Virus record (IMG/VR): IMGVR_UViG_3300029448_000054
Coordinates: 1 to 55,048 of that record
DNA: 55,048 bases
Reading direction: 5' to 3' (one strand)
From: a virus
Lineage: Duplodnaviria; Caudoviricetes
Numbering within the stretch: the stretch's first letter is position 1; each line of letters starts with the position of its first letter. Both the position numbers and the translations under genes were made by a program. The notes below the pieces were generated by a model. The model was not told where the DNA came from, made no database searches, and saw only the letters and a program-made list of their open reading frames with translations. Below are positions 16,233-36,270 of this stretch, in pieces.

Positions 16233-18634
16233 TATCCTCTCCCCTTATTGGCTGAACGTTGCATAGCAATTTGTGCTCGCATCTGAGCTATATCTTCTGT
16301 ACTGCCAATACGCTCACGTTGGATAGCCGCTTGCTCTTGAGCTTTCTGTTTATTAAACTCAAGCTCCATTTGCTCTTGTTGGGCATCTTGCATCTGATCT
16401 TGTTGCTTTAACTGTAACTCTTGTTGTTTTAATTCTACTAAGGGGTCTTGTCTTTGAGCACCAAGAACCTGTGCTTCTTCTTGCAAGTAAGCAGTCATCA
16501 GCTCAGCTTCTATTTCATCACTTCTATTTTGCATCATTTCAGGAGGTATTTCTTGCCCCTGTTGCTGCATAGCTTGCATTTCTTGTTGTGCAACCATCTG
16601 CCCTTTTAAACTTAGATGCTCGAATATATGTGTTTGCAAAATCTGCATAGATGCAGGATTGCCTTTTACTGTCATACTCTGCATAAAAGCTAAATGCGTT
16701 TGTATATGTGCATCATGGTTTTGTTCTGGGAAGGCTTTTAATTGTTGCCTACCAGCCATAGCTAATTGCAATTGACCATTTTCAGTAATCGCATTTGTAG
16801 GCTGTGGTTGTTGTGGAGGTGTTAATATCTGCTCAATATTATCTACACCCAAAGCACTATACATCCTGCGATATGCTTCATAAGTATTATGCATTTGTGG
16901 ATTAGCTTGTGCGAGTTTTAATTGCTCTGCTGCTAAACTTACACGCTGGGACATACTGAAAATATTAGGGTTAGCTACAGGTACAATATCCACACGACCA
17001 TCAAAATCCTGTGCTTTCATGCCTTGCTGATTACCTGTAACATTGTACAAATAATCACTGCCATCTGCAGCTATGATCTCAGCAAGCAATTTAAATTCTT
17101 GCTTCATAGCATTGTACAAACGCTTATGCACAGCAGACATAATACGACTGCCACGTTCCATAAGCGCAACTGTTGTACCTACAGGCATCTCAGTATTCTG
17201 AATATTGCCTGTACCTATATCTGTTGTGCCTACAAATTTCTGTGCCGCTTGTACTACAAAACCAAGCAGCTGAAACAGAGTCGCGCTCGGCTCTTTGTAG
17301 GGCAGAGGTAAGAGTGAGCCGCGAAGCTCCGTTCCAACAACATCGACATCACGCCATTCTCCAGGCTGAAGTGGCTGATCATCATCTCGTATGCGTAAAC
17401 CTCTTGCTTTAAATCCAGCTGGCATATTTGATAAAGTACCAGCATCAATTAACTGCCGTAGGTTAGCTGTAGCTGTGCGGGATAGATTACCAAGTAAATG
17501 AATTAGGCCATTACCATAGAATCCAAGTCCAGGAGTAAACATATAATGAATAAAATATTGTTTTTTCCGCTTAAACGCATCATCTTCAGCATAATTACGG
17601 TACACAGACAAAACATCGCCCGAATCAGAAGATACCGTCACAATGTACGGCAGTTTTATACCTGTTGGCTCACCTTCGTCATCTTTATCCGCAAAATCTT
17701 CTAAATCTAAATAACAATGGCACTCATAAAGGGTTAGTTCTTCATATGAACCTGACTTTTCCAAACCCGAAAGCTCTTCTTTAGCCTCTTTTAGCTCATC
17801 ATACTCACCTTCTCCAGGAGTTACCTCTAAATCACGGTAAAAACCATTCACTTGTAGCTTCCGTAACTCATTTTCGGACATACGAATGATATGTGTAACA
17901 CGTTCACATGAGGCTAAATCAGTAGCATTGTATGGAACTAGCAAATCTTCCGCCTGTACAAACTTACTTACCTGTCTGCCAAGCTGTGGATCAGGGTAAA
18001 CTTTCTTAAATGCACTACCACATAGTCCTAAGTAGTATAACATCTGGTCAAATTCAGAATCATACTCTTCCATAACATGCAAAAGCTGATAATTCATCTC
18101 AGTTTTTATACGTTCTGACTGTTTTTCTAATTCTGGTGATGTATCACCCAAGACTTGTGTACGGACAGGACCACTCGGGGGCAATAATTCTTTATAGGCT
18201 TGGCTTTGGAATTGGCTAACTGCTTCATTCAGCATTGGGTGTATAACACCAGTAGCTCCTTGGAATGGTTCTGTACGGTTCTCATACTTAACACCAAGTA
18301 AATCTAAACCTTTTGTATAAACATTTAACCATTCATTACGCGAACTCTTATCTTCATCTACTTTTTCAAGTATCATACTAGATATACCTGTAAGTTCATC
18401 CTCATCGATAAACTCAGCAAGGTTATCCATAAATTGTGCTTCACCCTTATCTTCCGCATCAGGCTCAGCAAACTCTACTGAACCATCTTCCATTGTTGAC
18501 ATTTCCATACCATCAAAAGAAGGTTCAGGGGCAGTCGTCGGTAATTCTATTTCTAATGGGTCTGACTCTAATTGCTGACCAACCAATGTAAATTCACGCT
18601 CAACATTATTATAAGGGCTAGGTTGTTTTGCCAT
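16232..18634 (-). CDS. Portal protein
   Basis: 800 aa directly after TerL; F.GA.GV.HP.L.EA..QFQ, G.AFKKVY, GLGFYG.GLIH, LRQLIDAGTL.N.PAGFK; Gln-rich C-terminus. Confidence 0.9.
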   Translation of the reverse strand: MAKQPSPYNNVEREFTLVGQQLESDPLEIELPTTAPEPSFDGMEMSTMEDGSVEFAEPDAEDKGEAQFMDNLAEFIDEDELTGISSMILEKVDEDKSSRNEWLNVYTKGLDLLGVKYENRTEPFQGATGVIHPMLNEAVSQFQSQAYKELLPPSGPVRTQVLGDTSPELEKQSERIKTEMNYQLLHVMEEYDSEFDQMLYYLGLCGSAFKKVYPDPQLGRQVSKFVQAEDLLVPYNATDLASCERVTHIIRMSENELRKLQVNGFYRDLEVTPGEGEYDELKEAKEELSGLEKSGSYEELTLYECHCYLDLEDFADKDDEGEPTGIKLPYIVTVSSDSGDVLSVYRNYAEDDAFKRKKQYFIHYMFTPGLGFYGNGLIHLLGNLSRTATANLRQLIDAGTLSNMPAGFKARGLRIRDDDQPLQPGEWRDVDVVGTELRGSLLPLPYKEPSATLFQLLGFVVQAAQKFVGTTDIGTGNIQNTEMPVGTTVALMERGSRIMSAVHKRLYNAMKQEFKLLAEIIAADGSDYLYNVTGNQQGMKAQDFDGRVDIVPVANPNIFSMSQRVSLAAEQLKLAQANPQMHNTYEAYRRMYSALGVDNIEQILTPPQQPQPTNAITENGQLQLAMAGRQQLKAFPEQNHDAHIQTHLAFMQSMTVKGNPASMQILQTHIFEHLSLKGQMVAQQEMQAMQQQGQEIPPEMMQNRSDEIEAELMTAYLQEEAQVLGAQRQDPLVELKQQELQLKQQDQMQDAQQEQMELEFNKQKAQEQAAIQRERIGSTEDIAQMRAQIAMQRSANKGRG

Positions 18635-18764
18635 CAGTTTTACCTCCCTGTATAACTCGGAGCATTGGGGCTGGCTTATCTTCTAAACTATTTAGAACAA
18701 TCTCAAGGAGTTTTTTCAACTCCTCAATTCTATCCGTAGTAGGAGTTCGTTCTTGGCGGTACAT
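18618..18764 (-). CDS. Small hypothetical protein between TerL and portal
   Basis: Ends with LRVIQGGK motif; start uncertain. Confidence 0.4.
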   Translation of the reverse strand: MYRQERTPTTDRIEELKKLLEIVLNSLEDKPAPMLRVIQGGKTDGKTT

Positions 18765-20220
18765 CGACATGGTCGTTATAATCCTCTGGGTGCTGTATAA
18801 ACCCACCTTCGCGGAAACGTCGGAGAGCCTGTGTTACTGTATCAACAAAATCATCATTTTCACCAACCGGAAATGAAGCACACTCTTCTATCACTTCCTC
18901 TGCCCATCTAGTATCTGGAGCCCATACTAACCCACTTTCTAGGATTGGCGCAATGGAGTTTACTCGAGTATATTTATCATTACCTCTACTCGGGGAATAA
19001 TTCTGCACAGGAATACCCATACTACGCAATTCTTGCGTTAATGGCATACCAGTCGCTTTTGCCTCAATAATCACACATTCAGGCTCCCAATAATCATATT
19101 CTTCTTTTGCAATACGCTTTAAATCAGGGAAATCCCATCTACCTCTTCGCGCATCTACTAGAATAATGTTGGGGGGTTCTCCCTCCACGGGATAAAATAC
19201 ACCCCATGTGGTTATCGCACTATAATCAGCATTCTCCTTTTTACTAAATGCTGTATCATAACTCTGCATAACATAACTTAATTTAGGGATATCTTCTTTT
19301 TCCCACTGATTCCACCACTCACGCTTCAAAATAGCAGTCGTCTCACTCGTAGGATTCTGCTGCCATTGGGCTTCCCATTTACCTACTGATAATGAAGCCT
19401 TCACCTTTAATAATTCTTCTTTTTTCCAAAACTCAGGCCATAACACTTTATAACCATCTTCAGATTTTTCATCTTCTAATAATGCCGGAAACTCTACTAC
19501 TTCCCATTGGTCAGCCAGTACATCTCGCGCTTGCTGTTTTAATAATTTGCCAGTTAAATCAATCTCTGACCAACGCGTCATCACAATTACAATCGCTCCT
19601 CCAGGCTGCAATCTCTGCCGTGGACCAGATGTATACCACTCATAGGCATTCTCTAATGCTGCGGGTGACATTGCATCTTGTTCGGAGTGCGGGTCATCAA
19701 TAATCATTAAATCCGCACCACGGCCTGTAATCGCGCCACCTACACCCGCCGCAAAATATTCACCGCCAGCATGGGTCTCCCATCTGCCAGCCGCACTACT
19801 ATCCTGCCGTAATTTTACATCTGGAAAGACCAGAGAGTAATCGGTACTATTCATAAGGTTACGCACCTTTCGGCCAAACCTCACCGCTAACTCACCTGTA
19901 TGCGTTGCTTGAATAATCTTTAACTTTGGATTCAAACCCATTAAATAACTCGGCAATAAATAACTGGCATACTCCGACTTCGTATGTCGCGGCGGCATAT
20001 TCACAATTAACCGCTTAATACTACCATCAGCTAAACCATTAAACTTCTTTGCCATTATCTTATGGTGCTTCCCCTCAATAAACTCAGGCCATACTGTTTT
20101 ACAATAGGCCATAAAATCCTTCTTCGCGTGATCACTCGAGATGTGCTGTTTCTGCTTCTCAAGCAAACGTGCATACTGCTTCAATACTTCTTCAGGGACA
20201 GTCATTGGGGCATTTGTCAT
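18730..20220 (-). CDS. terL: Terminase large subunit
   Basis: Walker A variant NMPPRHTKS, Walker B IIDDP, VMTRW, RNase-H-like nuclease SYDTA / DDFVD. Confidence 0.95.
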   Translation of the reverse strand: MTNAPMTVPEEVLKQYARLLEKQKQHISSDHAKKDFMAYCKTVWPEFIEGKHHKIMAKKFNGLADGSIKRLIVNMPPRHTKSEYASYLLPSYLMGLNPKLKIIQATHTGELAVRFGRKVRNLMNSTDYSLVFPDVKLRQDSSAAGRWETHAGGEYFAAGVGGAITGRGADLMIIDDPHSEQDAMSPAALENAYEWYTSGPRQRLQPGGAIVIVMTRWSEIDLTGKLLKQQARDVLADQWEVVEFPALLEDEKSEDGYKVLWPEFWKKEELLKVKASLSVGKWEAQWQQNPTSETTAILKREWWNQWEKEDIPKLSYVMQSYDTAFSKKENADYSAITTWGVFYPVEGEPPNIILVDARRGRWDFPDLKRIAKEEYDYWEPECVIIEAKATGMPLTQELRSMGIPVQNYSPSRGNDKYTRVNSIAPILESGLVWAPDTRWAEEVIEECASFPVGENDDFVDTVTQALRRFREGGFIQHPEDYNDHVDVPPRTNSYYG

Positions 20221-20387
20221 AATTATTTAATAATATAAAAATTTTCTTGGCGCAAGACTCTCCGATCATTGTTTCAAAAAGGGGGGTGGAGGTACGCTGA
20301 ATAATTTTCAGAGTGGTAATGATTTGGACAGAACCGTGTACTGCGCTGCGCTGGTACAGGTTCATCGCTCTCTAGGGGGGTTGCCCC

Positions 20388-20445
20388 TGTTGCAAAAGTG
20401 CAACACTGTAACAAATGTGCAGCGGGGTACCTTTTGGCACCCCGC
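20388..20445 (-). terminator. Two hairpins downstream of the GA/TC-free gene (possible terminator or end structure)
   Basis: GCGGGGTGCC-AAAA-GGTACCCCGC (20422-20445) and TGTTGCA-CTTT-TGCAACA (20388-20405); no clean U-tract. Confidence 0.5.
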
Positions 20446-20454
20446 CGCTAGGGG

Positions 20455-21000
20455 TTAGCTTGCCAGTACTAGCTTGCCAAACGCTGTGCCGTATGTGGCA
20501 ACTGTTTGGCTGCTTAAAGCAAACGCACCGTTTAGTATTGCGGCAACCGCGTTTTGGTTAGTGTGTGCGCTGTTAGCGTTACACAGTACACCGCTGCCGC
20601 CTTTAAGCACACCGTTAGCATGTGTGCCAGCAATGTGCATTGCTGCATGGCACTGTACTAATGGGGTGGCTGTTAGCTTGCTAGGCACTTTTGTATTAAT
20701 GCCAGCAACATTAAAGCATTTAACACCCTTAACAGTATGCTGTGGCACACCATTTACACACGCCCATAACATTAAGCCGCGTGCGCTAATAACGCCCTGC
20801 TTGTTTGGCTGCATAACCGCCCATAGCTTGCCGCCACCAAACAGTACACCGTTTGCCAATGCATTAGGCGTAAACTGTAAAGCTACATTGCCCATGCCGT
20901 TAGCGTTAATAAAGGCGTGCATAGCTGCAACATTAATATTGCCAGCCGCACCATTTGCACCGTTAAAAGCCTGTGCCGCTTGTGTTGTTGTGTTAACCAT
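20455..21000 (-). CDS. Asp/Glu-free 181-aa protein encoded by GA/TC-free DNA; paralog of 21739..22191
   Basis: Has its own promoter-like region, RBS hairpin and TAA stop; shares motifs with the 21739 protein. Confidence 0.8.
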   Translation of the reverse strand: MVNTTTQAAQAFNGANGAAGNINVAAMHAFINANGMGNVALQFTPNALANGVLFGGGKLWAVMQPNKQGVISARGLMLWACVNGVPQHTVKGVKCFNVAGINTKVPSKLTATPLVQCHAAMHIAGTHANGVLKGGSGVLCNANSAHTNQNAVAAILNGAFALSSQTVATYGTAFGKLVLAS

Positions 21001-21050
21001 TGTTAACCCCTTTTTAGTTAACGCCGCCGCCCTATGCGGTGGCTATACAT

Positions 21051-21082
21051 ATTTTATGCCACAGGTGGGATATGGGTGTAAA
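21051..21082 (-). promoter_or_regulatory. Putative sigma70-type promoter for the GA/TC-free gene
   Basis: TTTACA at 21077-21082, then CATAAA at 18 nt or TAAAAT at 20 nt; AT-rich upstream; followed by a 5' hairpin at 21023-21043. Confidence 0.55.
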
Positions 21083-21135
21083 CCCCTAAAAGCACATTAA
21101 TGCAAAAATAATTGCAATAACCCCAATTAACGCCA

Positions 21136-21312
21136 TTAGCATTTGTGCCGCCATGCACCGATATAGCCGACCATAAAGCTGGATAAGCCAATGGCAAATA
21201 TCATTGCGGTCATGTAATGGTGCAACGGTGGGATATTAAACAGGTCCGCACTGGTAAACATTAAGAACACACCAGCCAACATAAGATAGGTATATGTAAA
21301 GATCATCAACAT
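21136..21312 (-). CDS. Small 2-TM membrane protein
   Basis: GGAG RBS before MLMIFTY; two hydrophobic segments. Confidence 0.5.
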   Translation of the reverse strand: MLMIFTYTYLMLAGVFLMFTSADLFNIPPLHHYMTAMIFAIGLSSFMVGYIGAWRHKC

Positions 21313-21314
21313 AA

Positions 21315-21503
21315 CTAGCTCCCCATAACAGTGCCATGCTGACACCATGCAGTAATTTCATCAAACAGTGCTTTCGGCACAATTTTGGTTTCATCGTTTG
21401 GTCCCCAGCCAATATTTACGCATTGACTAATAGGCACACAGCCAAACTCACGGTGATACAAAAAGTCCTCATCCGTTTGCTCTCGTAAAGTATCGTAGTC
21501 CAT
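21315..21503 (-). CDS. Hypothetical protein
   Basis: AAAGGAG RBS; 62 aa. Confidence 0.6.
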   Translation of the reverse strand: MDYDTLREQTDEDFLYHREFGCVPISQCVNIGWGPNDETKIVPKALFDEITAWCQHGTVMGS

Positions 21504-21674
21504 AACCAGCTCCTTTGCGTTAAGTTATGTATTTACAGTGCCAGCCGCCGAGCTGTCTTGCCAGCACAAAATTGTCACAGCGACCAGGATTGACTTCTGG
21601 AGAAGTCTGGCGAAATTTAATGATGTAGTGTGAGTATATATGACGGTGCATATATAATGAGATCTTTTTCTATC

Positions 21675-21696
21675 TCCATCCATCCATCCATCCATC
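21675..21696. repeat. (TCCA)5TC microsatellite
   Basis: Read directly; abuts the terminator U-tract. Confidence 0.9.
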
Positions 21697-21726
21697 AAAA
21701 AAGAAAGGGCGACCAATCGGCCGCCC
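21697..21726 (-). terminator. Rho-independent terminator
   Basis: GGGCGGCC-GATT-GGTCGCCC-TTTCTTTTTT on the minus strand. Confidence 0.85.
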
Positions 21727-21738
21727 ATCCTAAGATAA

Positions 21739-22191
21739 TTAAGCTGGGATAACGAACAGCTCAACGAAGTTCTTGCCCCATGTAGCCTTGGCTGATGGTG
21801 ACTGCCCACCATTAAGCGCGTCCAATAAAGCATGGAACTTTCTTGCCTTGATTGACTTATGGGCTAAGTCTACATCGGTTAAGGTAACTACATGACCCTC
21901 ATGGTCGGAGTTGATCAACTGCCATACTACCTTACCACGAAGGGTGAGGTTGGGATTGCCTACCTCATCAAATAATGTTTTTGCCTTTTCAAAAGGAAAA
22001 GGATTAGGCGTACCAACTACATCAACAGTAGGCCGGACACCGACATTATTTGGATTGCCGCCAGCTTGCTCTTGGACAAACTTAAAAATGTCCTGAGCGG
22101 TGACTCCCATATTACGCTGGTCCTCGGGGAGAGAATTAATGCCCTGAAAAGTGATTTCCTGAGCTACGACTTTTTTAGCTGATTTAGCCAT
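21739..22191 (-). CDS. 150-aa early protein, normal-composition paralog of 20455..21000
   Basis: Start MAKSAKK follows an AGAAAGGA RBS; monocistronic with promoter and terminator. Confidence 0.8.
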   Translation of the reverse strand: MAKSAKKVVAQEITFQGINSLPEDQRNMGVTAQDIFKFVQEQAGGNPNNVGVRPTVDVVGTPNPFPFEKAKTLFDEVGNPNLTLRGKVVWQLINSDHEGHVVTLTDVDLAHKSIKARKFHALLDALNGGQSPSAKATWGKNFVELFVIPA

Positions 22192-22242
22192 GATAAGTTC
22201 CTTTCTACGAACTTGAGTTAGTAGCAACCCTGCTACACATAT

Positions 22243-22271
22243 AGAGTAGCAAATAGACCTTCCGCTGTAAA
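22243..22271 (-). promoter_or_regulatory. Putative sigma70 promoter
   Basis: TTTACA-N17-TACTCT followed by hairpin GTAGCA-GGGT-TGCTAC. Confidence 0.65.
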
Positions 22272-22344
22272 CACCTAAGTTATCATAATGAGTAAAAAAG
22301 ATACGAGCAGCTCGACACCTGATGTCATGTGAATTCTACCGATA

Positions 22345-22782
22345 TCACCGGACCTCTCGACCTGGATCGTCGCTCATCATCAGTCGTCGGAGGACTCTTG
22401 CCCATCCATCTCCATCCATCGGCCATTCCATCCGGTCATCGTACAATGGCTCTCCATCCATCAATCTCTTACTCAGGTTTCGGCCATCCATAAATAATAG
22501 CTGCCCTGACGAAGGATGATGAACCAAGTTCCAAACGCATCCACCAACAGATGTTCTTGAGGTCTGCCATGCTATTTGATGAGGACGCCACTTGGGGAAC
22601 TTCTTGTCAGACTTTGTCGCAAGTATCTTTAACTCTACCCAGAAATCCTTGCCATTCAAGCAACCATTGACATCAGGCACTCCTGGACTTGCCCATGACT
22701 CCATTCTAGTCCAGTGTACCCCAAGGGGTCTGGTTCCATCGCGTAAGGCTTTCCAAAGTTTAGACTCAGGGTTCTTTGCCAT
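22345..22782 (-). CDS. PD-(D/E)xK nuclease (Holliday junction resolvase/VRR-NUC-like)
   Basis: E..LW...R.E....GVPD....FWVELK...PHQIAW. Confidence 0.8.
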   Translation of the reverse strand: MAKNPESKLWKALRDGTRPLGVHWTRMESWASPGVPDVNGCLNGKDFWVELKILATKSDKKFPKWRPHQIAWQTSRTSVGGCVWNLVHHPSSGQLLFMDGRNLSKRLMDGEPLYDDRMEWPMDGDGWARVLRRLMMSDDPGREVR

Positions 22783-23326
22783 CAGGTAAAACCTCCAGTT
22801 TGTCCATCTCTATGACAGGGCTGGTCGCTTCTACCAATGCTGGGTAGTCTTGCTGTATCCGCTTAATTTCAGTAAGCACTTCTTCTTTACTCATTTGGTC
22901 TATCTTACCATGCAGTATTTCTTTACGGTCAATGTAAAGACCCGCAGCTTGGCCTCTTGATTTTTCAGCCGAGACTGCTGCTGCATAGTTTCCATTCTGC
23001 ATAGCTACATCACGGAGTTGTGCTAACTTCTGTACATGGCTTTCAAAGGTGACCTCGTACTTCTGTTGTAGCTCTTTCTTTATTTCATATACCCTGTTCA
23101 AAACCTGAGGGTAGTTACGTCCGTTCAACATATGGCTTGCGATAGAGTGTGCATTGGATTCAGCGTACCCTGCCCTGAGTGCTGCTTCCGTCTGTGTAAC
23201 TTCTTCTGTTGCATAGATCATTGCAAACTTTTCCTGCATGGGTGTCAGCCCTTTTTCCACCCGAGGATTAGCCACAATGTCCAAACTGTTTTTATGAGTA
23301 ACCTTTGCCTTTGCCATAAGACTCAT
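22766..23326 (-). CDS. terS: Terminase small subunit
   Basis: LT..QEKFA..Y...TQTEAA.RAGY......AS..L HTH, then AAV.AE..RG.AAGLY.DRKE. Confidence 0.85.
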   Translation of the reverse strand: MSLMAKAKVTHKNSLDIVANPRVEKGLTPMQEKFAMIYATEEVTQTEAALRAGYAESNAHSIASHMLNGRNYPQVLNRVYEIKKELQQKYEVTFESHVQKLAQLRDVAMQNGNYAAAVSAEKSRGQAAGLYIDRKEILHGKIDQMSKEEVLTEIKRIQQDYPALVEATSPVIEMDKLEVLPDGKEP

Positions 23327-23650
23327 ACTACTTTTCTATAATAGGAAGGTAAATAGAAATCGAGTCATTTCAAAAAACCAACGGCTGAAACTCGCGTAGC
23401 TGTCTAAAGTTTAGACTACAATATATGATTTAGAGGTATAACCCTTTGATATGTTTGTATAGCCAGATAACGTATATTTGAATATCGGATAGAGTACCAT
23501 ACCCCATATTTCATTTTCGGTACTATATGTAAAAGTGCCAGAATATCAGAGAGCCACGGTTATTAGACCGTGACCCGTGACCTTTGTATTATTGTTAGAT
23601 AAAGATGATTACCAGTAAAACAGGTATCATATCCCAGAGTAATTCCATGA

Positions 23651-24052
23651 TTACCACCAGCAAGAGTAAACGACTTGTTTACCCTCCTTGATGGCAGCTT
23701 TTGCGGCTTCTATAAAAGCTAGGTCATCTTCCCTGTAATGTTTTACAGATTCATCTTGGAATTGGTGACCGTAGAAAAAACCGCCATCACAAACATTTTC
23801 AACATATCCATTATGAATGGCTCCCTCCAGCTTATTTATATCACCTTCAGTAAGCACCATATCATTGCAGTTAAGCTCAACGGCTGGTCTGCCAGTTTTT
23901 TCAACCCACAGTTGCTCCATAAAATCTTGGAGCCGAGCATGTTTACGCCAGTAAAAATCTTCATCAGCAATTTTTACTGTATACTCTTTGCCAGCATCAT
24001 CTACACGTTTTTCGGTTGTGCAGCCAATCATACCATATTGATCTAATCCCAT
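23651..24052 (-). CDS. Conserved phage protein (MGLDQY...YWRKH...Y.CWW)
   Basis: Motif pattern; GGAGG RBS. Confidence 0.7.
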   Translation of the reverse strand: MGLDQYGMIGCTTEKRVDDAGKEYTVKIADEDFYWRKHARLQDFMEQLWVEKTGRPAVELNCNDMVLTEGDINKLEGAIHNGYVENVCDGGFFYGHQFQDESVKHYREDDLAFIEAAKAAIKEGKQVVYSCWW

Positions 24053-24061
24053 TATACCCTC

Positions 24062-24301
24062 CTATATATCTAACTCTTTGCAACTAGCACGATAAGCCAA
24101 CTCTTCTTCGCACTTAGGACAAGGTGTTTTGTCTTTATCATCTATATGCTTTGCATAATTGTTACCGAGCATTGGCATCCCACAAAGAGTGCCAGAGTAA
24201 GATCCAGGAACAGACCAGTGTTGCTGACCTAGCTTTTTAGTCCACTCATACAACCCAAGATCTTTAGCAACCCTTGGAACATAATTAAGTATTTCAGTCA
24301 T
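24062..24301 (-). CDS. Small Zn-binding hypothetical protein
   Basis: H...TLCG...CPKC; GGAGG RBS. Confidence 0.6.
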   Translation of the reverse strand: MTEILNYVPRVAKDLGLYEWTKKLGQQHWSVPGSYSGTLCGMPMLGNNYAKHIDDKDKTPCPKCEEELAYRASCKELDI

Positions 24302-24403
24302 TATACCCTCCAGTTAAGATTGAGCAGCCGCGCTGCCTATAATTATATAATAAAGCGTGATGCCACATGAAGTAGTATTAAGTACTCCATGTGACTATTT
24401 TGT

Positions 24404-24466
24404 TTAGCTGAGTATCCACAGAACTATGAGCACAGATATTGCACCTAAAAGGCCAAAGAGTATCAT
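24404..24466 (-). CDS. Possible 20-aa single-TM peptide (not in ORF track)
   Basis: MILFGLLGAISVLIVLWILS; ATGA-coupled to the upstream stop. Confidence 0.35.
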   Translation of the reverse strand: MILFGLLGAISVLIVLWILS

Positions 24467-24813
24467 GCTACGTTTGTATCCCGTGGTATATCAATGATAT
24501 GCCATACTGCCTCAAGTAATGCTTCTTCACCCACATCACTAGAAAGTAATAGGGCAGAACATTTAGGCTCATCAGCAACTGGAACAACTGTTGGTGGACC
24601 ATCAATATGTGGATAGTAATAGCACACCAGCATATAATCATCTGCCCAACCTGTTTCCGTTACTTGTGGTAAACGAGTAACAACCAAACGCTCAACTTCT
24701 GTGATCCATAAATCACAAGATGTTTCACTAAGGGTTGGATCACACATTGTTTGTGATTTACGAGAGTAGTCTTCCATAACAGACTGTACCTGTTGCAAGA
24801 ATTGAGTAGCCAT
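24463..24813 (-). CDS. Hypothetical early protein
   Basis: AAAAGGAGG RBS and an upstream AT-rich promoter-like region. Confidence 0.65.
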   Translation of the reverse strand: MATQFLQQVQSVMEDYSRKSQTMCDPTLSETSCDLWITEVERLVVTRLPQVTETGWADDYMLVCYYYPHIDGPPTVVPVADEPKCSALLLSSDVGEEALLEAVWHIIDIPRDTNVA

Positions 24814-24905
24814 TGCTACCTCCTTTTGTTGATGTAGCCCTTATTGGCTACCCTTATATAATAAGGTGTGATAGGTATAAGTGTGTCTTTTATGTTCATC
24901 GCGAT

Positions 24906-24932
24906 AAAAAAGACGGCCACCGAAGTGACCGC
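24906..24932 (-). terminator. Rho-independent terminator with cUUCGg loop
   Basis: GCGGTCAC-TTCG-GTGGCCGT-CTTTTTT on the minus strand. Confidence 0.85.
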
Positions 24933-24989
24933 CAAGTTAAGGGAGGATATACACAAGAGTTTTTTCTTGCACACTTATCATTATACATC

Positions 24990-25211
24990 TTATTGATTGA
25001 TGCAAGGGTTAATCCGTTCCATCAATTTATTCATAACAATATCGGCACGTTCAGCAGTTGCTCCATCTATCCATTCTTCTATTTCATCAGGATCCATCCC
25101 TGCTTTAGAAAGTTCCATGGCGCATTGTCGGGCATCCGTATCACCTTCTAAAAAGTGATACTGTGCTTCTTCTTGCATTTCCATCATCATTGCTTTGACT
25201 TTACCCATCAT
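24990..25211 (-). CDS. Hypothetical acidic protein
   Basis: MGKVKAMMMEMQE N-terminus; coupled. Confidence 0.6.
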   Translation of the reverse strand: MMGKVKAMMMEMQEEAQYHFLEGDTDARQCAMELSKAGMDPDEIEEWIDGATAERADIVMNKLMERINPCINQ

Positions 25212-25378
25212 CTGTCTCCCATTTTATATTCGGCATCCAAATCCATCCAAGCATTCTCGTAAGCATAATCCCAATTAGAATGATAGCCTGTAGCTATGTC
25301 ATCATCGGCAATACACTTAGCCCAATGGTCAAGACTAGGCTCATGGTCAAGTGGCAAATCAAGTTGACTATTCATCAT
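25208..25378 (-). CDS. Hypothetical acidic protein
   Basis: ORF 25208..25399; start uncertain. Confidence 0.5.
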   Translation of the reverse strand: MMNSQLDLPLDHEPSLDHWAKCIADDDIATGYHSNWDYAYENAWMDLDAEYKMGDR

Positions 25379-25565
25379 CTTCATACTCCACCCATCCATC
25401 TGGTCCCCATATACTTAAATGAGACCCTGCTTTACCATCCTTGATTAAAGCATTTGCGAAAATTTTTGCATACTCTTCACGGTGAAACTCTCCAAAGATA
25501 AAACCATCTTCTTGCACGTGAAAGGGTATACCGCTTGAACGCCAATCCTCAGAATCTATTCTCAT
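25368..25565 (-). CDS. Hypothetical protein
   Basis: AGGAG RBS, ATGA overlap. Confidence 0.55.
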   Translation of the reverse strand: MRIDSEDWRSSGIPFHVQEDGFIFGEFHREEYAKIFANALIKDGKAGSHLSIWGPDGWVEYEDDE

Positions 25566-25735
25566 TTTTTATACTCCTTCATCCATGTATTAAGAATATC
25601 GGTTGCGAGATGTTTGGTTATATCAAACTCTTGCATAAGGTAGATAGTAGCCCCGAACATATTGGTTTCACCACTATCCCGTAACTCATCAAGGAATTGT
25701 TTGTATGAATCACTCAACCCACCAGAGCTACCCAT
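25562..25735 (-). CDS. 57-aa conserved phage protein (not in ORF track)
   Basis: MGSSGGLSDSYKQFLDELRDSGETNMFGATIYLMQEF...; TAATG and ATGA coupling on the two sides. Confidence 0.7.
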   Translation of the reverse strand: MGSSGGLSDSYKQFLDELRDSGETNMFGATIYLMQEFDITKHLATDILNTWMKEYKK

Positions 25736-31817: not shown

Positions 31818-32208
31818 TCCCTCGCATTCGCACTTCTGCCTCTACAAGAAACAAATACCTACGCAAATCACGGATATCATCAAGTATACCTTCCTCACGC
31901 ATATCATCTTTAGCAGCTAAGAATACATCATAATTGTATTCATTCACTTGCTTTTCAAGCCTATCCCATTTGCGAGCCAGCATCATAAATGCACCAACAC
32001 CGCCACGCTGTTTCCAACTATCACCATAAGATTGCTCAGAACCATGCAGCCCTTCTACATCTTGATTAGCTAACCCGAGGATATTATTAACAATAGGGCT
32101 ATAATCATCAGGGGTAATATCATCCTTTTTTGCCATAACCGTATACTCCTCCCAATTTAATTCCTTCATACGCCTTTTCATGTATTGTTCGTGGCTTTCT
32201 CTTCCCAT
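31810..32208 (-). CDS. Nucleotide-modification-associated all-alpha (MazG-like/DUF1599-type) protein
   Basis: YGDSW...G..G.....RKWDRL...E...D...DL..Y; start may be ATG 32181 or 32136. Confidence 0.65.
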   Translation of the reverse strand: MGRESHEQYMKRRMKELNWEEYTVMAKKDDITPDDYSPIVNNILGLANQDVEGLHGSEQSYGDSWKQRGGVGAFMMLARKWDRLEKQVNEYNYDVFLAAKDDMREEGILDDIRDLRRYLFLVEAEVRMRGNG

Positions 32209-33206
32209 TTATCTCTCCTACGTTCTAACCATTCCCAAGTGGCTAAATGCCAATCATCGGGTTTTATATCTGCACAATGGTCAAAAGCTAAAGCTAATTC
32301 TTTAGCTTTCCATGCTTGCCATACTCGGTGCATAGGTTGTGCCAAATCAGAGAAACAGGAGTTTTTATATGCTCTTGGCCTTTCAGCATCCTCCATAAAC
32401 CAACTAAGCTCTTTATCAAATGATTCTATATTATTTACCAAAGCATCTGGCCTAATCATACGCACATTATATGATTCATAATCAGGCTGCATACCCTCTA
32501 GCTTTTTTAATACTTCAGTATAAGCATGGAGGTTATTACTAAACTGTGTATAGATGCCAACACTCGCGCCGATGCGTGAGGCTATATACTCTTGGAGAAT
32601 GGACATATGGACAGCATTAGCTCCCAATGCACCCCAGATCATATCATTACTACGGTTGCATACTGTCATATCAAGTATATTATCACGCACACTAAAATAG
32701 ATATGGGTATTACAAGGGTGGTCTTTACAGCTATTAGCCATCCGTAAATCACCTTCAGCATCCCACATTGCAAGCACTGCTCGTCTATCATTTGTATGTG
32801 TCATTAATCTATGGGTGATCACATCAATCTGGTCACGATGGAAATAATTACGCCAACGATAACCATATGCTCCCTGTAATAATTTACCATCATCACTATA
32901 CTCACCCATCCGTGCATTATAGCGTTGTATCCACTCTAAATCATTACGCCCTGCTAACATCCACAGGCTTTCCATAAAATGAAATATGGGGTTTGCATCA
33001 CGCTCGGGATAGAACAGTACACGTTCGCGTGGGCTATTGTAGACAATAGCGCATGGTTCACGGAACTCAATTGCTTTACCATTACGAGTTTCTACTTCTA
33101 CACCATCAGCTTCTAATGCTTGCTTCACAACAAACAATGCTTCACTTACATTTCCTACGGTGAAAGTATGCACCCCTCGCATGGGTGCTTTGCCATATAA
33201 TGCCAT
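32178..33206 (-). CDS. Thymidylate-synthase-family enzyme, probable dUMP hydroxymethylase
   Basis: TRNG, GAYG.RW, RRAV, catalytic D.PCN and RSNDMIWGALGAN, keeping the dUMP-specifying Asn; resembles the M6/YuA-type phage enzymes as I recall them. Confidence 0.8.
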   Translation of the reverse strand: MALYGKAPMRGVHTFTVGNVSEALFVVKQALEADGVEVETRNGKAIEFREPCAIVYNSPRERVLFYPERDANPIFHFMESLWMLAGRNDLEWIQRYNARMGEYSDDGKLLQGAYGYRWRNYFHRDQIDVITHRLMTHTNDRRAVLAMWDAEGDLRMANSCKDHPCNTHIYFSVRDNILDMTVCNRSNDMIWGALGANAVHMSILQEYIASRIGASVGIYTQFSNNLHAYTEVLKKLEGMQPDYESYNVRMIRPDALVNNIESFDKELSWFMEDAERPRAYKNSCFSDLAQPMHRVWQAWKAKELALAFDHCADIKPDDWHLATWEWLERRRDKWEEKATNNT

Positions 33207-33289
33207 ATTTAACCGCCTTTCTATGGGGTTTTAAAGCCGCTACAGCGGCCTGAGTTAATGTGCCTTACCCTACTACTAAAAGCAACCCT

Positions 33290-34309
33290 CTAGCTGTCTG
33301 AGTAACCTGTAATAAAGTCAAAATGTTTCTTGACCCTTTTAGTATAAGTACCTCCTTTTAACGCCTCCTTGATTGCAAGCGTTGTTTCCTCAGTAGGCTC
33401 GGGTAATGCCTTGCGTCCCATGCGGTCAGGTAACAATCCATTACGCAAAGTGGTATTGTCACAACCGTTACAAGGACCGAAATCACGTTGCCCATGATAC
33501 AATTTTGTTCGCGCTGCATGAAATGCCTCCCCCTGCCATACTTCTTCCATTGGTGTATCAATTACATTGCCACACTTATACCATCCTACCCAATCATTAC
33601 AGCAAACAGCAACATTACCATCCCAACGTATAGACATCTCACGGAAAGGTTTGGCACACCGTTTACCATCTTGTTCATGGTTTAGATGGAAAGCGTTACC
33701 AGCGTGGTTACTGACTTGGGCATGGGTTCCACTTGTAGCGAGCGTAAGATCCATTCCAACCACGATAATATGTTCAGTAGCTTTTCGTCGTTGGTGAGGG
33801 TTTGCGTTACGTTCTGCGGGGTATTCGTATACAGGGTATGGACCATTATATCTCTCCTTTATTTTATCCACTATTTTTATACGATCATAATTATCAAGAA
33901 ACAGTACATTCAACCCTGCTTCCATCAGTTGGTTGACACTTTTTTCAGTGTCGCGTAAAAGACCACCACCATTACTGGTCATCATTAAAGATGTTTTTGG
34001 TAACTCCTGACGGAACAATCTAATCATATCAATAAAGAAAGGATGCATAGTTGGCTCACCATGCATGGCAAACTCTAGCCGAGGGTTCCACCCTGCTTCT
34101 TTTATACGAGCACATATAGCCCTAGCTGCTTTGATACTTAGATATTTGTAAGGGGCAGATGCTTTACCATGCGTATTATCCGGACCATCTGCACCATTCT
34201 CTCGTATAGATTGTATACCGCAAAAAGAACAAGCAAGGTTACAACCCTCTGCTAATTCTATCTGAATAGAGTTTGGTGGGTCTTGGTGATTGTTAGATTG
34301 CGCCGCCAT
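33290..34309 (-). CDS. Radical SAM enzyme with C-terminal SPASM/twitch domain
   Basis: CNLACSFC (CxxxCxxC), HGEP, SNG; C..PF...I.WDG.V..CC.D...GN...PC.GC. Likely start MAAQS. Confidence 0.9.
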   Translation of the reverse strand: MAAQSNNHQDPPNSIQIELAEGCNLACSFCGIQSIRENGADGPDNTHGKASAPYKYLSIKAARAICARIKEAGWNPRLEFAMHGEPTMHPFFIDMIRLFRQELPKTSLMMTSNGGGLLRDTEKSVNQLMEAGLNVLFLDNYDRIKIVDKIKERYNGPYPVYEYPAERNANPHQRRKATEHIIVVGMDLTLATSGTHAQVSNHAGNAFHLNHEQDGKRCAKPFREMSIRWDGNVAVCCNDWVGWYKCGNVIDTPMEEVWQGEAFHAARTKLYHGQRDFGPCNGCDNTTLRNGLLPDRMGRKALPEPTEETTLAIKEALKGGTYTKRVKKHFDFITGYSDS

Positions 34310-35078
34310 CTTTAGCCGCCTTTCTCCATTGTACACGAACATCCCAGCGTGTTTTCATACCTTCCCACCCTGTTTTAGTTTCTTTCTGTACTGCTTTCAC
34401 ATACATAGGAAACTCTTCTGCTAATGCTAGGCTTGCTTTTTCTTGTAACTCTGCATTGCGGTATGAACTGCAACCTCCAGCCGCACCGGAAGCACCACGT
34501 TGATCCCATGTCCAATCAACAATAACAGCATTACGATGTCCTGACTGAAACAGTTTCAGGGTAACGTAATAATCCTCCATCAGATCCATGGCATCATAAC
34601 GTATACCTAAATTATGTATTATTTCAGGGCGTATTGCATGGACAGCATTTTGTCGCATACCATATTTAACTGTATCGGGGAAGTGCTTATCATTCATTTG
34701 CCGTGGGCTGAGGCCAACATGGGTATGGTTCATTAATAACCATTCCATACGCTCCCATAACTCATGCATTTCTTCTTGGTTTGTTTTTCTTAGGTTGGCA
34801 GCCATCCCATGTATGCGGCGACCAAATATAAGATCATCATCCAAAACAATAATTTTATCATGTCCTGCCTCCATAGCATGTTCTAATATAAACTGCCTTA
34901 CATTATTGATTCCTTTAATTTCACCGCGATTTATACAATCACGTCCCTGTTTTGTATGCCAGTTTATTTCTTCTTGTGGGCAAACAAGAGCAGCATACTC
35001 TCGGGCTTCCGGACCAATACTATCCCAAGTAATTTGGTTATTCATCCTACCCCTTGTTGGTATATATATCGGTATCAT
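34293..35078 (-). CDS. GT-A fold glycosyltransferase of the TET/JBP-associated (TAGT/GREB1/base-J GT) type
   Basis: IYIPTRGR, RQFIL, VLDDD, EDY..TL.L...G..N, GGC...R. Confidence 0.8.
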   Translation of the reverse strand: MIPIYIPTRGRMNNQITWDSIGPEAREYAALVCPQEEINWHTKQGRDCINRGEIKGINNVRQFILEHAMEAGHDKIIVLDDDLIFGRRIHGMAANLRKTNQEEMHELWERMEWLLMNHTHVGLSPRQMNDKHFPDTVKYGMRQNAVHAIRPEIIHNLGIRYDAMDLMEDYYVTLKLFQSGHRNAVIVDWTWDQRGASGAAGGCSSYRNAELQEKASLALAEEFPMYVKAVQKETKTGWEGMKTRWDVRVQWRKAAKDGGAI

Positions 35079-35368: not shown

Positions 35369-35370
35369 AT

Positions 35371-36267
35371 CTACGCCACCTCCCCATGTACAGCCTCCAG
35401 CATAGAACCTTGTAACCCATTATACTTACTGCGAGGTGTACCTTGACCAAGGCGTACACGCTCATATTTATCCCACTCGCATAAGCTATGTTCAATGCAA
35501 CGCATATCCACTGCCAAATTCGGGATGTGATCACCAAGATAACGGTGCGAATCTTCGTGTAGATCTTGCATCTCCCTATTACTTTGATAGGCACTTAACG
35601 CTTTAGTGAGGGGTCTGCCATGGATCCTGTTGAGGCCACGTTTTGCTCCCGGACCAGCGTTTGCCCATTTGTATTTATCTTTTGCTTGATCAAGGACAGG
35701 TGTGTAGTTGAGGTCTGTGACGACCTCATAAGACATAAAACCTCCCCCGCCCCATCCTTTATATGCACCCAACGCTTTGTGTACTTCTTCCAGCGATTGC
35801 GTATCAGCGGCGGTCTGCGCCAACGCTTCTCTATTCTCCCATATCGGCGAAAGGAAATGGTCAACAACGACCTCCGACTTTGGTGCTTTAAGACCTTGGT
35901 TAGTGATTATATACGCACCAGTGAATGTCCGTAAACCATTGTCAATTCTAGTTTGTATAAGTTCTTTTGTGCGAGCAGGATTAAATTCTTCTACCCAACC
36001 ATGTTCTTCAGCAAACTCACTTGTGCCAACCATACGAAACATACAACAGTTAAATATCATTTCACCATGTGGGCGGTTATCATTTGGCTTAGTCCAGTTT
36101 TGGCGCATCCAAACAGTCACCCTATCATTCTCACGGAAAGGGTTAGTAAACTTATAATCCCGCAGTATAGGGTCATCAGTCCAAGGGGCTGGTTGCCCCT
36201 TGGCTCGTTTTTGGTAAATAGCGTGACGCTCGTTTATCCAGTAGCAGAACCTTTCTATGTTCTCCAT
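35371..36267 (-). CDS. aGPT-Pplase1 / 5hmdU-kinase helical-domain family DNA-modification protein
   Basis: F.YWINERH.IY.KR..G.P.PWTDDPIL..YKFTN.FRE.DR, FTGAYII, G.GF..YEV..DL, GPGA.RGL, EH.LCE.DKY. Confidence 0.85.
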   Translation of the reverse strand: MENIERFCYWINERHAIYQKRAKGQPAPWTDDPILRDYKFTNPFRENDRVTVWMRQNWTKPNDNRPHGEMIFNCCMFRMVGTSEFAEEHGWVEEFNPARTKELIQTRIDNGLRTFTGAYIITNQGLKAPKSEVVVDHFLSPIWENREALAQTAADTQSLEEVHKALGAYKGWGGGGFMSYEVVTDLNYTPVLDQAKDKYKWANAGPGAKRGLNRIHGRPLTKALSAYQSNREMQDLHEDSHRYLGDHIPNLAVDMRCIEHSLCEWDKYERVRLGQGTPRSKYNGLQGSMLEAVHGEVA

Positions 36268-36270
36268 AAT

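What the first reader, a model, noticed from the sequence alone, without database searches (positions are those of the whole stretch)
20455..22191. The Asp/Glu-free protein is a recoded paralog of a nearby ordinary protein
Seen in sequence: collinear matching blocks between 20455..21000 and 21739..22191 are INVAAMHAFINAN-GMGNVALQFT vs VTAQDIFKFVQEQAGGNPNNVGVRPT, ISARGLMLWACVNG vs LTLRGKVVWQLINS, and VAAILNGAFALSSQTVATYGTAFGKL vs LLDALNGGQSPSAKATWGKNFVEL. Acidic positions are replaced by A/N/G/K. Both genes look monocistronic with the same architecture: TTTACA -35, ATATGT(A/G)TAGC near the start, a 5' hairpin, an RBS hairpin and a downstream hairpin. Inference: a two-stage system in which an 18-amino-acid, modification-proof copy acts first and the unconstrained copy follows. 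A plausible function is binding modified DNA or host RNA polymerase, or anti-defence.
Basis: partly seen in the sequence, partly recalled or inferred. Interest (0 to 1): 0.85.

Follow-up and report, generated by a model that had tools for sequence, protein, structure and literature searches.

The report
Acid-free phage gene beside ordinary twin
A marine phage keeps two distant copies of one unknown gene, one written normally and one written, control regions included, without the DNA step GA/TC, so its protein has no acidic residues, probably so that this copy escapes the phage's own thymine modification.

Summary
ORF A (20455-21000, minus strand, 181 aa, no Asp/Glu) and ORF B (21739-22191, minus strand, 150 aa) are remote paralogs. 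BLASTP sees nothing (E 4.6). A third set of relatives links both (E 4e-10 and 4e-25). Exact promoter and leader motifs occur only upstream of these two genes.

The missing acidic residues are a by-product. DNA 20371-21069 (698 bp) has no GA or TC on either strand, where about 71 are expected. A is a real gene (dN/dS 0.05-0.27), and the ban has survived saturated synonymous change.

In 8 of 10 near-complete related genomes, one ordinary copy sits upstream of one GA/TC-depleted copy. All 10 carry the thymidine-hypermodification gene matching PF18723. Four relatives without that gene have neither the family nor an island.

Most likely reading (about 0.5): TpC is the hypermodification context and A's transcription unit is exempt from the mark. 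The two-stage model and the protein's function are untested.

Earlier notes of this scan report similar GA/TC-free islands on other phage DNA.

The parts
20371..21069 (.). GA/TC-free island: 698 bp between two flanking GA/TC steps with no GA or TC on either strand. The next 91 bp (to 21160) are also free.
   Evidence: 5612 GA/TC steps in 55048 bp (0.102 per nt). The longest gap is 698, the next are 91 (adjacent) and 71. No other dinucleotide class has a comparable gap. GA/TC observed/expected is 0.00 in the island against 0.84 genome-wide, while CA/TG is 1.47.
20455..21000 (-). Gene A: 181 aa, no Asp or Glu, pI 9.98. The GA/TC-depleted member of the family.
   Evidence: It is coding: variable sites by codon position are 73/63/152, and dN/dS is 0.047-0.269 in 9 pairs. 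33 relatives at 39-99 % identity. Ser is 7/7 AGC. There is no TTC, ATC, GTC, CTC or GGA.
21001..21087 (-). Promoter and leader of A: -35-like AGGGGTTTACA (21077-21087), ATATGTATAGC (21042-21052), leader hairpin (about 21023-21043), and a ribosome-binding-site hairpin (about 21002-21022) whose loop is a GA-free version of the loop used by B.
20371..20454 (-). 3' hairpins of A. A 13-pair stem lies at 20419-20448 with two smaller stems after it. The island ends here.
   Evidence: -43.1 kcal/mol, z -4.9. The island ends 79-102 nt after the stop in the depleted copies of other genomes.
21739..22191 (-). Gene B: 150 aa, an ordinary paralog (8 Asp, 7 Glu, pI 8.02). One search counted 54 GA/TC steps over the longer frame it read from the upstream TTG (162 aa, 16 Asp+Glu).
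22192..22276 (-). Promoter and leader of B: AGGTGTTTACA (22266-22276), ATATGTGTAGC (22232-22242), leader hairpin (about 22221-22236), and ribosome-binding-site hairpin (22195-22214).
21707..21726 (-). Intrinsic-terminator-like hairpin with a T run after B.
35371..36267 (-). Context gene: PF18723 (HMUDK_hel) protein, a homolog of proteins annotated alpha-glutamyl/putrescinyl thymine pyrophosphorylase. It is the one modification gene shared by all near-complete genomes that hold the A/B family.
   Evidence: (E 4.9e-53).
32178..35078 (-). Context genes: thymidylate-synthase homolog (32178-33206), radical SAM/SPASM (33290-34342) and TAGT glycosyltransferase (34293-35078).
   Evidence: TAGT and the radical SAM gene are present in only 3 of 13 related near-complete genomes.

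Best explanation
A and B are two old paralogs of a phage-only protein family that has no Pfam, PHROG, PDB or fold match. In what I examined, the family occurs only in marine HTVC023P-like podoviruses that carry the thymidine-hypermodification gene PF18723 (aGPT-Pplase type).

Shown:
- A's lack of Asp and Glu is a side effect of selection on the nucleic acid, not on the protein. The whole transcription unit of A, from the -10 region to the end of its 3' hairpins, contains no GA/TC step on either strand.
- This ban has been held through saturated synonymous divergence.
- It arose or was lost at least three times in the family tree.
- The usual genome has one ordinary copy upstream and one depleted copy downstream.

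Inferred, and my preferred mechanism: these phages replace T by 5-hmdU and then hypermodify it only where it is followed by C (TpC, which reads GpA on the other strand). The island is then the one stretch of the genome that stays free of the bulky base. Copy A can be transcribed and regulated whatever the modification state of the DNA, for example from the incoming, fully modified genome or late in infection. Copy B, behind the same promoter type but full of TpC, is subject to the mark.

The proteins are most likely nucleic-acid-binding rather than catalytic. The evidence is indirect: both are basic; the conserved residues are Gly/Asn/Ser loops, one Arg and one Trp; no acidic residue can be essential; and many distant members have Lys/Ala/Thr-rich N-terminal tails.
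For: Paralogy:
- hhalign A against B gives E 2.4e-5 over 134 collinear columns; the 200 shuffles reach at most 22.9 against 38.4.
- A against A4 gives 4.1e-10 and B against A4 gives 3.6e-25.
- The B profile finds P0121 at E 4.6e-5 in 1.84 billion proteins, and P0121 sits inside the A clade (98* support).
- The predicted secondary-structure elements come in the same order.
- The unique promoter and leader motifs are shared.

The constraint acts on the nucleic acid:
- No GA/TC in 698 bp where about 71 are expected.
- No TCN Ser, TTC, ATC, GTC, CTC or GGA codons, against frequent use in 7 reference genes. None of the codon junctions of A can carry GA/TC, since its CDS holds none, against 8.9 % of 4777 junctions in the reference genes.
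- The non-coding flanks are free too.

Selection is ongoing:
- 31.5 % of synonymous single changes would create GA/TC. Homologs that differ by 37-81 synonymous changes are still free, which has neutral probability 8e-7 to 5e-14.

Recurrence:
- 16 of 22 A loci have no Asp or Glu and a free stretch of 513-973 bp.
- 14 of 24 B loci have a free stretch of 621 bp or more downstream of B.
- In 80 loci of distant relatives, only the GA/TC class gives long free stretches: 5 of 600 bp or more and 19 of 280 bp or more.
- 8 of 10 near-complete genomes have one ordinary plus one depleted copy, with the ordinary copy upstream.

Link to thymine modification:
- PF18723 is present in 10 of 10 records that are at least 90 % complete and hold the family, and in 16 of 18 overall. 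It is also in 5 of 10 further records, including 2 of 2 complete ones.
- Four complete relatives (TerL 54-62 % identical) have neither PF18723 nor the family.
- The window encodes no TGT/DpdA and no QueC.
- In print: resistant restriction sites of phages M6, ViI and PhiW-14 point to hypermodified T in TG or TC dinucleotides (PMC6449724, abstract and passages read). Lee et al. 2018 state that the exact motifs are not yet known (PMC5889632, passage read). 5-hmdU is converted 'in sequence-specific contexts' (PMC8989533, passage read).
- TpC would be 17.3 % of all T.
Against: - No chemical or sequencing evidence on the DNA of this phage group was available. TpC as the context is an inference from the island itself.
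- In M6, ViI and PhiW-14 the inferred context is TG or TC, and TG/CA is not avoided here (observed/expected 1.47).
- Hypermodification alone does not require an island. Four cultured phages with homologs of the PF18723 gene (Sonora, LKO4, Ab18, CN1) have neither the family nor any dinucleotide-free island.
- The constraint is not universal inside the group. The lineage L007-L011/L014 has one Asp and many GA/TC although its record G009 keeps PF18723. G012 has two ordinary copies and G020 has one.
- The co-occurrence of the family with PF18723 may be shared descent rather than function.
- A and B share the same promoter motif, which does not suggest different timing.
- Host RNA polymerases are known to transcribe several kinds of modified phage DNA (my own knowledge), so a transcription block is not a given.
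- A's model is weak (pLDDT 63), and the two models could not be superposed.
Confidence: 0.5

Rival explanations
1. Escape from a DNA-targeting enzyme that is not the phage's own modification. This could be a host or phage nuclease, nickase, deaminase or ADP-ribosyltransferase that acts at TC/GA, so that only this gene survives intact.
For: The avoided word is strand-symmetric and covers non-coding DNA, as expected for a target in double-stranded or in either single-stranded DNA. Enzymes with TC preference exist: T4 endonuclease IV at dT-dC, DddA-type and APOBEC-type deaminases, and DarT at TNTC (my own knowledge, not checked here). Some genomes with PF18723 have no island, as expected if the pressure comes from particular hosts.
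Against: Protecting one 0.7-kb gene does not protect the other 54 kb. The island is tied to one gene family across deep divergence rather than to essential genes in general. The island is more G+C-rich than the genome (0.50 against 0.41), the opposite of a C-to-T deamination footprint. No candidate enzyme was identified.
Confidence: 0.2
2. RNA-level selection. The mRNA of A must lack GA and UC to resist a dinucleotide-specific endoribonuclease, such as an abortive-infection or toxin RNase, CRISPR collateral cleavage, or a phage RNase that clears other messages.
For: In the window the island matches the transcription unit, from the -10 region to the end of the 3' hairpins. Its 3' limit is constant at stop +79 to +102 across the depleted copies tabulated. 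The ribosome-binding-site hairpin loop is rewritten without GA. Motif-free messages that escape MazF-type toxins are a known idea (my own knowledge).
Against: It needs two independent bans (GA and UC) on one strand, where a DNA-level cause needs one. In other genomes the free stretch runs 200-410 bp upstream of the start, past the conserved promoter. No such RNase is known or was found here.
Confidence: 0.12
3. Protein-level selection against acidic residues, for example to avoid a modification of Asp or Glu or to make an extremely basic protein. The DNA pattern would then be secondary.
For: A and most relatives lack Asp and Glu entirely. One relaxed relative (the G016 copy) has 6 GA/TC in its coding sequence but still no Asp or Glu.
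Against: It cannot explain the missing TCN, TTC, ATC, GTC, CTC and GGA codons, the absence of GA/TC at codon junctions, or the clean non-coding flanks.
Confidence: 0.03
4. A and B are not homologous. The similarity would be convergence or a composition effect between two small Gly/Asn/Ala-rich proteins.
For: BLASTP E is 4.6. The direct hhalign probability is only 75.7 %. A's structure model is of low confidence. No fold comparison was possible.
Against: The score is far above all 200 composition-preserving shuffles. There are transitive links at E 4e-10 and 4e-25. Intermediate sequences exist (the second A type). The gene order is the same in 8 genomes. The exact promoter and leader motifs are shared.
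Confidence: 0.08

Closest known systems
Dinucleotide-context thymidine hypermodification from 5-hmdU (phages M6, ViI, PhiW-14, SP10, PaMx11)
   Same: The window has a thymidylate-synthase homolog and a PF18723 / aGPT-Pplase-type gene next to PolA. That gene is 35-40 % identical to those of the Stenotrophomonas, Pseudomonas and Bordetella phages listed (Sonora, PaSz-6, Ab18, Chuck, LKO4, CN1). Published restriction data point to T followed by G or C as the modified context (PMC6449724). HTVC023P-type clades V, VIII and IX are reported to carry TS plus aG/PT-PPlase1 (PMC9599517, passages read).
   Different: No modification-free island or acid-free gene is described in the passages I read. Four cultured members have none. 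Here only TC, not TG, is avoided. The base chemistry here is unknown; TAGT and radical SAM/SPASM genes occur only in the closest relatives.
Restriction-site and short-motif avoidance in phage genomes; motif-free messages that escape MazF-type toxins (own knowledge)
   Same: A sequence word is removed by selection so that a sequence-specific activity finds no target.
   Different: Here the word is a dinucleotide. It is removed completely but only from one transcription unit, at the cost of two amino acids and about a third of codon choices, and an unconstrained paralog is kept beside it.
7-deazaguanine modification at GA and GGC in phage CAjan (PMC7544227, abstract read)
   Same: A phage-encoded hypermodification with a GA dinucleotide context.
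   Different: No DpdA/TGT and no QueC in the window. GGC is frequent in A (13 Gly codons).
Leading-end early genes made before the rest of the genome is exposed (T7 gene 0.3/Ocr, T5 pre-early region; own knowledge)
   Same: One small, separately transcribed gene is given a privileged status relative to the rest of the genome.
   Different: The genome ends and the entry order are unknown here. A is basic and acid-free, whereas Ocr is an acidic DNA mimic. A lies between terS and terL.
SPO1 TF1, an abundant phage protein that prefers 5-hmU DNA (own knowledge)
   Same: A small basic phage protein in a phage with replaced thymine. This is a model for what A and B might do.
   Different: TF1 is an HU-family protein. 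A and B match no Pfam family and no solved structure.

Membership tests
A/B protein superfamily (unnamed; no Pfam or PHROG model) | Collinear conserved blocks: AGGN..NV; R-G-x-h-h-W-x-h-h-N-G; LNGG-x-S-x-S...W/Y-G..F..L-V at the C-terminus | tested here: met
   Present in A, B and distant members. hhalign E values are 2.4e-5, 4.1e-10 and 3.6e-25.
A/B protein superfamily (unnamed; no Pfam or PHROG model) | Same three-dimensional fold in A and B | tested here: inconclusive
   The AlphaFold models have the same order of helices and strands, with an extra hairpin and loop in A. A has pLDDT 63. No tool could superpose the two models, and the VIA libraries were absent.
5-hmdU-derived thymidine hypermodification system | aGPT-Pplase / amino-acid:DNA transferase type gene | tested here: met
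   PF18723 at E 4.9e-53. 39.7 % identity to a protein annotated alpha-glutamyl/putrescinyl thymine pyrophosphorylase in phage Sonora.
5-hmdU-derived thymidine hypermodification system | dUMP hydroxymethylase (thymidylate-synthase homolog) | tested here: inconclusive
   PF00303 at E 9.6e-20. The model does not separate a hydroxymethylase from an ordinary thymidylate synthase.
5-hmdU-derived thymidine hypermodification system | P-loop 5-hmdU DNA kinase | not tested
I scanned 28 window proteins against Pfam and saw no separate kinase. I ran no dedicated search.
5-hmdU-derived thymidine hypermodification system | Hypermodified thymidine present in virion DNA, in a defined sequence context | not testable with these tools
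   Only assembled contigs were available. TpC is inferred from the island.
7-deazaguanine (DpdA) DNA modification | DpdA/TGT-family transglycosylase and preQ0 synthesis genes | tested here: not met
   PF01702 and PF06508 give 0 matches in the window. The controls ring in 14 of 14 and 13 of 14 genomes.
Classical restriction-site avoidance | Genome-wide depletion of a 4-8 bp recognition word | tested here: not met
   The avoided word is a dinucleotide, and the depletion is local. Genome-wide GA/TC observed/expected is 0.84 against 0.00 in the island.
Ocr-type DNA-mimic anti-restriction proteins | Highly acidic protein surface | tested here: not met
   A has no Asp or Glu and pI 9.98. B has pI 8.02.
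HU/TF1 type II DNA-binding proteins | Match to the HU-family model | tested here: not met
   No Pfam or PHROG family for A or B at E up to 0.1.

The most novel reading that the evidence does not exclude
The pair is a built-in bootstrap for a chemically marked genome. TpC is the hypermodification context. The island is the only ordinary DNA in the virion. Copy A, folded from 18 amino acids, is the first or only protein that can be made from fully modified DNA. A is needed to read, coat or protect that DNA until the unconstrained copy B takes over. If true, the island reads out the long-sought sequence rule of thymidine hypermodification directly from sequence, and it gives natural examples of acid-free versions of an ordinary fold that arose several times.
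Probability: 0.2. Interest if true: 0.95.

Novelty: categorically new. Interest (0 to 1): 0.85.

Why it matters
1. Lee et al. 2018 wrote that the sequence motifs of thymidine hypermodification were not yet known, and Flodman et al. 2019 could only infer TG/TC from restriction patterns. The island gives a sharp prediction that sequence data alone can make (TpC, not TpG, in this group). Native-DNA sequencing or an in vitro reaction can test it.

2. The island shows selection on a dinucleotide strong enough to delete two amino acids from a folded, conserved protein. It has done so repeatedly, while an unconstrained paralog is kept alongside. This is a natural experiment in reduced amino-acid alphabets.

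3. A modification-exempt transcription unit would be a new element of phage genome design. It could be used to find DNA-modification contexts in uncultured viruses.

4. These phages belong to an abundant group related to pelagiphages, so the system may be common in the sea.

My searches found no paper describing it, though most subscription journals are outside the library. Notes of this scan report similar islands on other phage DNA.

Tried and rejected
- BLASTP of A against B: no significant match.
- megablast of the region and tblastn of A and of B against 50,697 phage records: no match.
- Pfam and PHROGs for A, B and the plus-strand ORF: nothing.
- Foldseek of the B model against PDB and BFVD: best E 2.1 and 1.8, so no fold assignment.
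- PDB sequence profile search with A4: 0 hits at E up to 1.
- ESM Atlas with B: no usable hit.
- Complex prediction of B with A: verdict 'no answer' (score 0.00), which is not evidence either way.
- Contigs of four RNA-library runs laid on 16000-26000. Pieces lie on B and TerL, and none of note lie on A. Contigs cannot show expression level or absence, so I draw nothing from this.
- HTVC027P and 023Pt_psg01 loci: no dinucleotide-free stretch near terL.
- Cultured phages with PF18723 homologs (Sonora, LKO4, Ab18, CN1): no A/B family and no island. I therefore dropped the idea that every thymine-hypermodifying phage needs an island.
- TAGT and radical SAM as the cause: dropped, because they occur in only 3 of 13 genomes while islands occur more widely.
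- A hypermutation (deaminase) footprint: judged unlikely, because the island is G+C-richer than the genome, the limits are sharp, and both strands are equally clean.
- The plus-strand ORF 20474-21100 is a by-product of the missing TGA/TCA.
- Supplementary files of papers were closed. The gene tables of PMC9599517 and the restriction tables of PMC6449724 might bear on the family and on the TC context.
Full report
**What the window is.** It is one IMG/VR virus record of 55,048 bp, classed linear and about 94 % complete. Nearly all genes lie on the minus strand. Its large terminase (18730-20220) is 54-62 % identical to those of Pelagibacter phages HTVC027P and HTVC023P, phage 023Pt_psg01 and phage DSL-LC04. 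It is therefore a marine HTVC023P-like phage.

In transcription order, the finding lies between terS (22766-23326) and terL:
- a nuclease-like ORF
- B (21739-22191)
- two small ORFs
- A (20455-21000)
- terL

**The observation.** A has 181 residues and no Asp or Glu. B has 150 residues, with 8 Asp and 7 Glu. BLASTP finds nothing (E 4.6), and neither protein matches Pfam or PHROGs.

Both have many relatives in metagenomes:
- A: 22 IMG/VR loci and 33 protein clusters at 39-99 % identity.
- B: 27 loci and 60 clusters.

Aligning each family and comparing the profiles gives E 2.4e-5, score 38.4 and 134 collinear columns covering almost the whole of both proteins. Reversed alignments score 14.8 and 11.4. 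In 100 column shuffles of each family the best scores are 18.8 and 22.9.

A search of 1.84 billion representatives with the B profile found 44 proteins. An alignment of 24 of the distant ones (A4) matches A at E 4.1e-10 and B at E 3.6e-25. One of them, P0121, sits inside the A clade of the family tree. A second type of depleted copy, found next to B homologs, has a C-terminus close to the B motif. The AlphaFold models (A pLDDT 63, B pLDDT 80) have the same order of helices and strands, with an extra hairpin and loop in A. I conclude that A and B are homologous. Because they sit in one genome, they are paralogs, and old ones: they lie in different clades with 98-99 % support.

**The shared architecture.** ATATGTRTAGC occurs exactly twice in the window, 41-42 nt upstream of the two start codons. 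AGGKGTTTACA, a -35-like word, also occurs exactly twice, at the same two genes. The upstream regions align, and both words are conserved upstream of homologs of A and of B. Each leader folds into two hairpins, the second enclosing the ribosome-binding site. Each gene is followed by a strong hairpin, and B's has a T run. In A, the loop of the ribosome-binding-site hairpin is a GA-free version of the loop in B.

**Why A has no acidic residues.** The DNA from 20371 to 21069 (698 bp) contains no GA and no TC, that is, no GA on either strand. The genome averages 0.102 such steps per base, so about 71 are expected. The next gaps are 91 bp (directly adjacent) and 71 bp. No other dinucleotide class has a comparable gap.

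Evidence that the ban acts on the nucleic acid and not on the protein:
- All 7 Ser codons are AGC.
- There is no TTC, ATC, GTC, CTC or GGA.
- A's coding sequence holds no GA/TC at all, so no codon junction forms one. In seven reference genes, 8.9 % of 4777 junctions do.
- The 69 bp upstream and 84 bp downstream of the ORF are clean too.

TG/CA is not avoided (observed/expected 1.47). The open frame on the opposite strand (20474-21100) is a by-product, since TGA and TCA cannot occur.

**A is a real gene under two layers of selection.** In 14 homologs, the variable sites by codon position are 73, 63 and 152. dN/dS is 0.047-0.269 in 9 pairs, with dS up to 1.6. Length differences are in frame. Of all synonymous single changes in A, 31.5 % would create GA or TC. 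Homologs that differ from A by 37-81 synonymous changes are still free, which has neutral probability of 8e-7 to 5e-14.

Of 22 A loci, 16 have no Asp or Glu and a free stretch of 513-973 bp. Six (L007-L011, L014) have one Asp and a relaxed pattern.

**The pair is the rule.**

Downstream of B homologs:
- 14 of 24 loci hold a free stretch of 621-1026 bp. Thirteen of these show an acid-free ORF; the fourteenth, L026, is cut by the locus end.
- Four more have stretches that are cut by the locus end or split.
- Three are of the relaxed type.
- Three end too early.

In 80 loci of distant relatives, only the GA/TC class gives long free stretches: 5 of at least 600 bp and 19 of at least 280 bp.

With the A4 profile, 9 of 10 near-complete genomes have two copies and one genome has a single copy. 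In 8 of the 10:
- One copy is ordinary (0.065-0.134 GA/TC per base, 8-16 acidic residues).
- The other is depleted (0-6 GA/TC in the coding sequence, 0-4 acidic residues).
- The ordinary copy lies upstream on the same strand.

G012 has two ordinary copies and G020 has one.

On a tree of 78 members, the acid-free state (at most one Asp or Glu; 31 rows) needs 8 changes by parsimony, and at least 3 are forced by well-supported branches. Acid-free sequences might attract each other in a tree. Since they still do not form one group, several origins or losses is the conservative reading.

**Link to DNA modification.** The window encodes a thymidylate-synthase homolog, a radical SAM/SPASM protein, a TAGT glycosyltransferase and a PF18723 protein next to PolA. 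The PF18723 protein is 35-40 % identical to proteins of the Stenotrophomonas, Pseudomonas and Bordetella phages listed, one of which is annotated alpha-glutamyl/putrescinyl thymine pyrophosphorylase.

Occurrence of PF18723:
- All 10 records that hold the family and are at least 90 % complete have it, and 16 of 18 overall.
- So do 5 of 10 further records, including both complete ones.
- TAGT and the radical SAM gene occur in only 3 of 13 genomes, so the island tracks the shared first steps and not the final chemistry.
- Four complete relatives have neither PF18723 nor the family. The same searches ring in other genomes.
- There is no DpdA/TGT and no QueC, so the GA-context deazaguanine system of CAjan (PMC7544227, abstract) is not the cause.

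In print:
- 5-hmdU is converted to thymine or to a hypermodified base in sequence-specific contexts (PMC8989533, passage).
- The motifs were 'not yet known' in 2018 (PMC5889632, passage).
- Restriction patterns of M6, ViI and PhiW-14 point to T followed by G or C (PMC6449724, abstract and passages).
- HTVC023P-type clades V, VIII and IX carry TS plus aG/PT-PPlase1 (PMC9599517, passages).

My preferred reading is that in this group the context is TpC (17.3 % of all T), and that A's transcription unit is kept free of it.

**What speaks against it.**
- Nothing chemical is known for these phages.
- TG is not avoided.
- Four cultured phages with PF18723 homologs have no island and no A/B family.
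- The relaxed lineage and G012/G020 keep PF18723 without a depleted copy.
- The family-PF18723 link may be shared descent.
- A and B share a promoter type, which does not suggest different timing.
- Expression could not be assessed.

**Function.** No family, solved structure or predicted viral structure matches. The complex job gave no verdict.

The indirect clues are:
- The proteins are basic (pI 9.98 and 8.02).
- No acidic residue can be essential.
- The conserved positions are Gly/Asn/Ser loops, one Arg and one Trp.
- Many distant members have Lys/Ala/Thr-rich N-terminal tails.

I infer a nucleic-acid-binding role. This is an inference only. Either a bootstrap role (made from fully modified DNA) or escape from self-binding (a protein that coats modified sites while its own gene has none) would fit.

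**Verdict.** The paralogy and the 'recoding' are supported, and they turn out to be one case of a recurrent design. The two-stage mechanism and the proposed functions remain untested. I found no description of this design in four literature searches. Earlier notes of this scan describe similar GA/TC-free, acid-free gene units in other uncultured phages with thymine-modification genes. I did not check those notes, and they are not independent evidence.

Noticed in passing
window 20474-21100 (+): A 208-aa open frame opposite gene A, also without Asp or Glu. It is a by-product of the missing TGA/TCA in the island, not a gene.
   Followed up: partly
window about 21670-21700 and 22400-22480: A short (CCAT)n run lies between the B terminator and the next gene. 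A CCATCC-rich stretch lies inside ORF 22345-22782, giving MDGW-like peptide repeats on the minus strand.
   Followed up: no
L045:6455-6695; also L013, L015, L027, L033: In some relatives the GA/TC-free stretch runs 370-410 bp upstream of the depleted gene. In L045 it covers the last 240 bp of the small membrane-protein gene that precedes it.
   Followed up: partly
L007-L011, L014 (record G009): A lineage of gene A has relaxed the ban (one Asp; longest free stretch 142-152 bp) although its record still holds PF18723.
   Followed up: partly
G012 (34299-34733 and 35717-36148); G020 (5849-6310): Two complete genomes carry PF18723 and the family but have no depleted copy. G012 has two ordinary copies and G020 has one.
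   Followed up: partly
G006:C1:32345-33379: The radical SAM/SPASM homolog of a close relative has one in-frame TAA.
   Followed up: no
window 32178-36888: The thymidine-hypermodification cluster combines a TAGT glycosyltransferase and a radical SAM/SPASM enzyme with the PF18723 protein. This combination occurs only in the 3 closest of 13 related genomes.
   Followed up: partly
window 22345-22782 (-): A 145-aa ORF between terS and B matches PHROG 2165 (E 8e-24) and, weakly, endonuclease and resolvase families. It overlaps terS by 17 bp.
   Followed up: no
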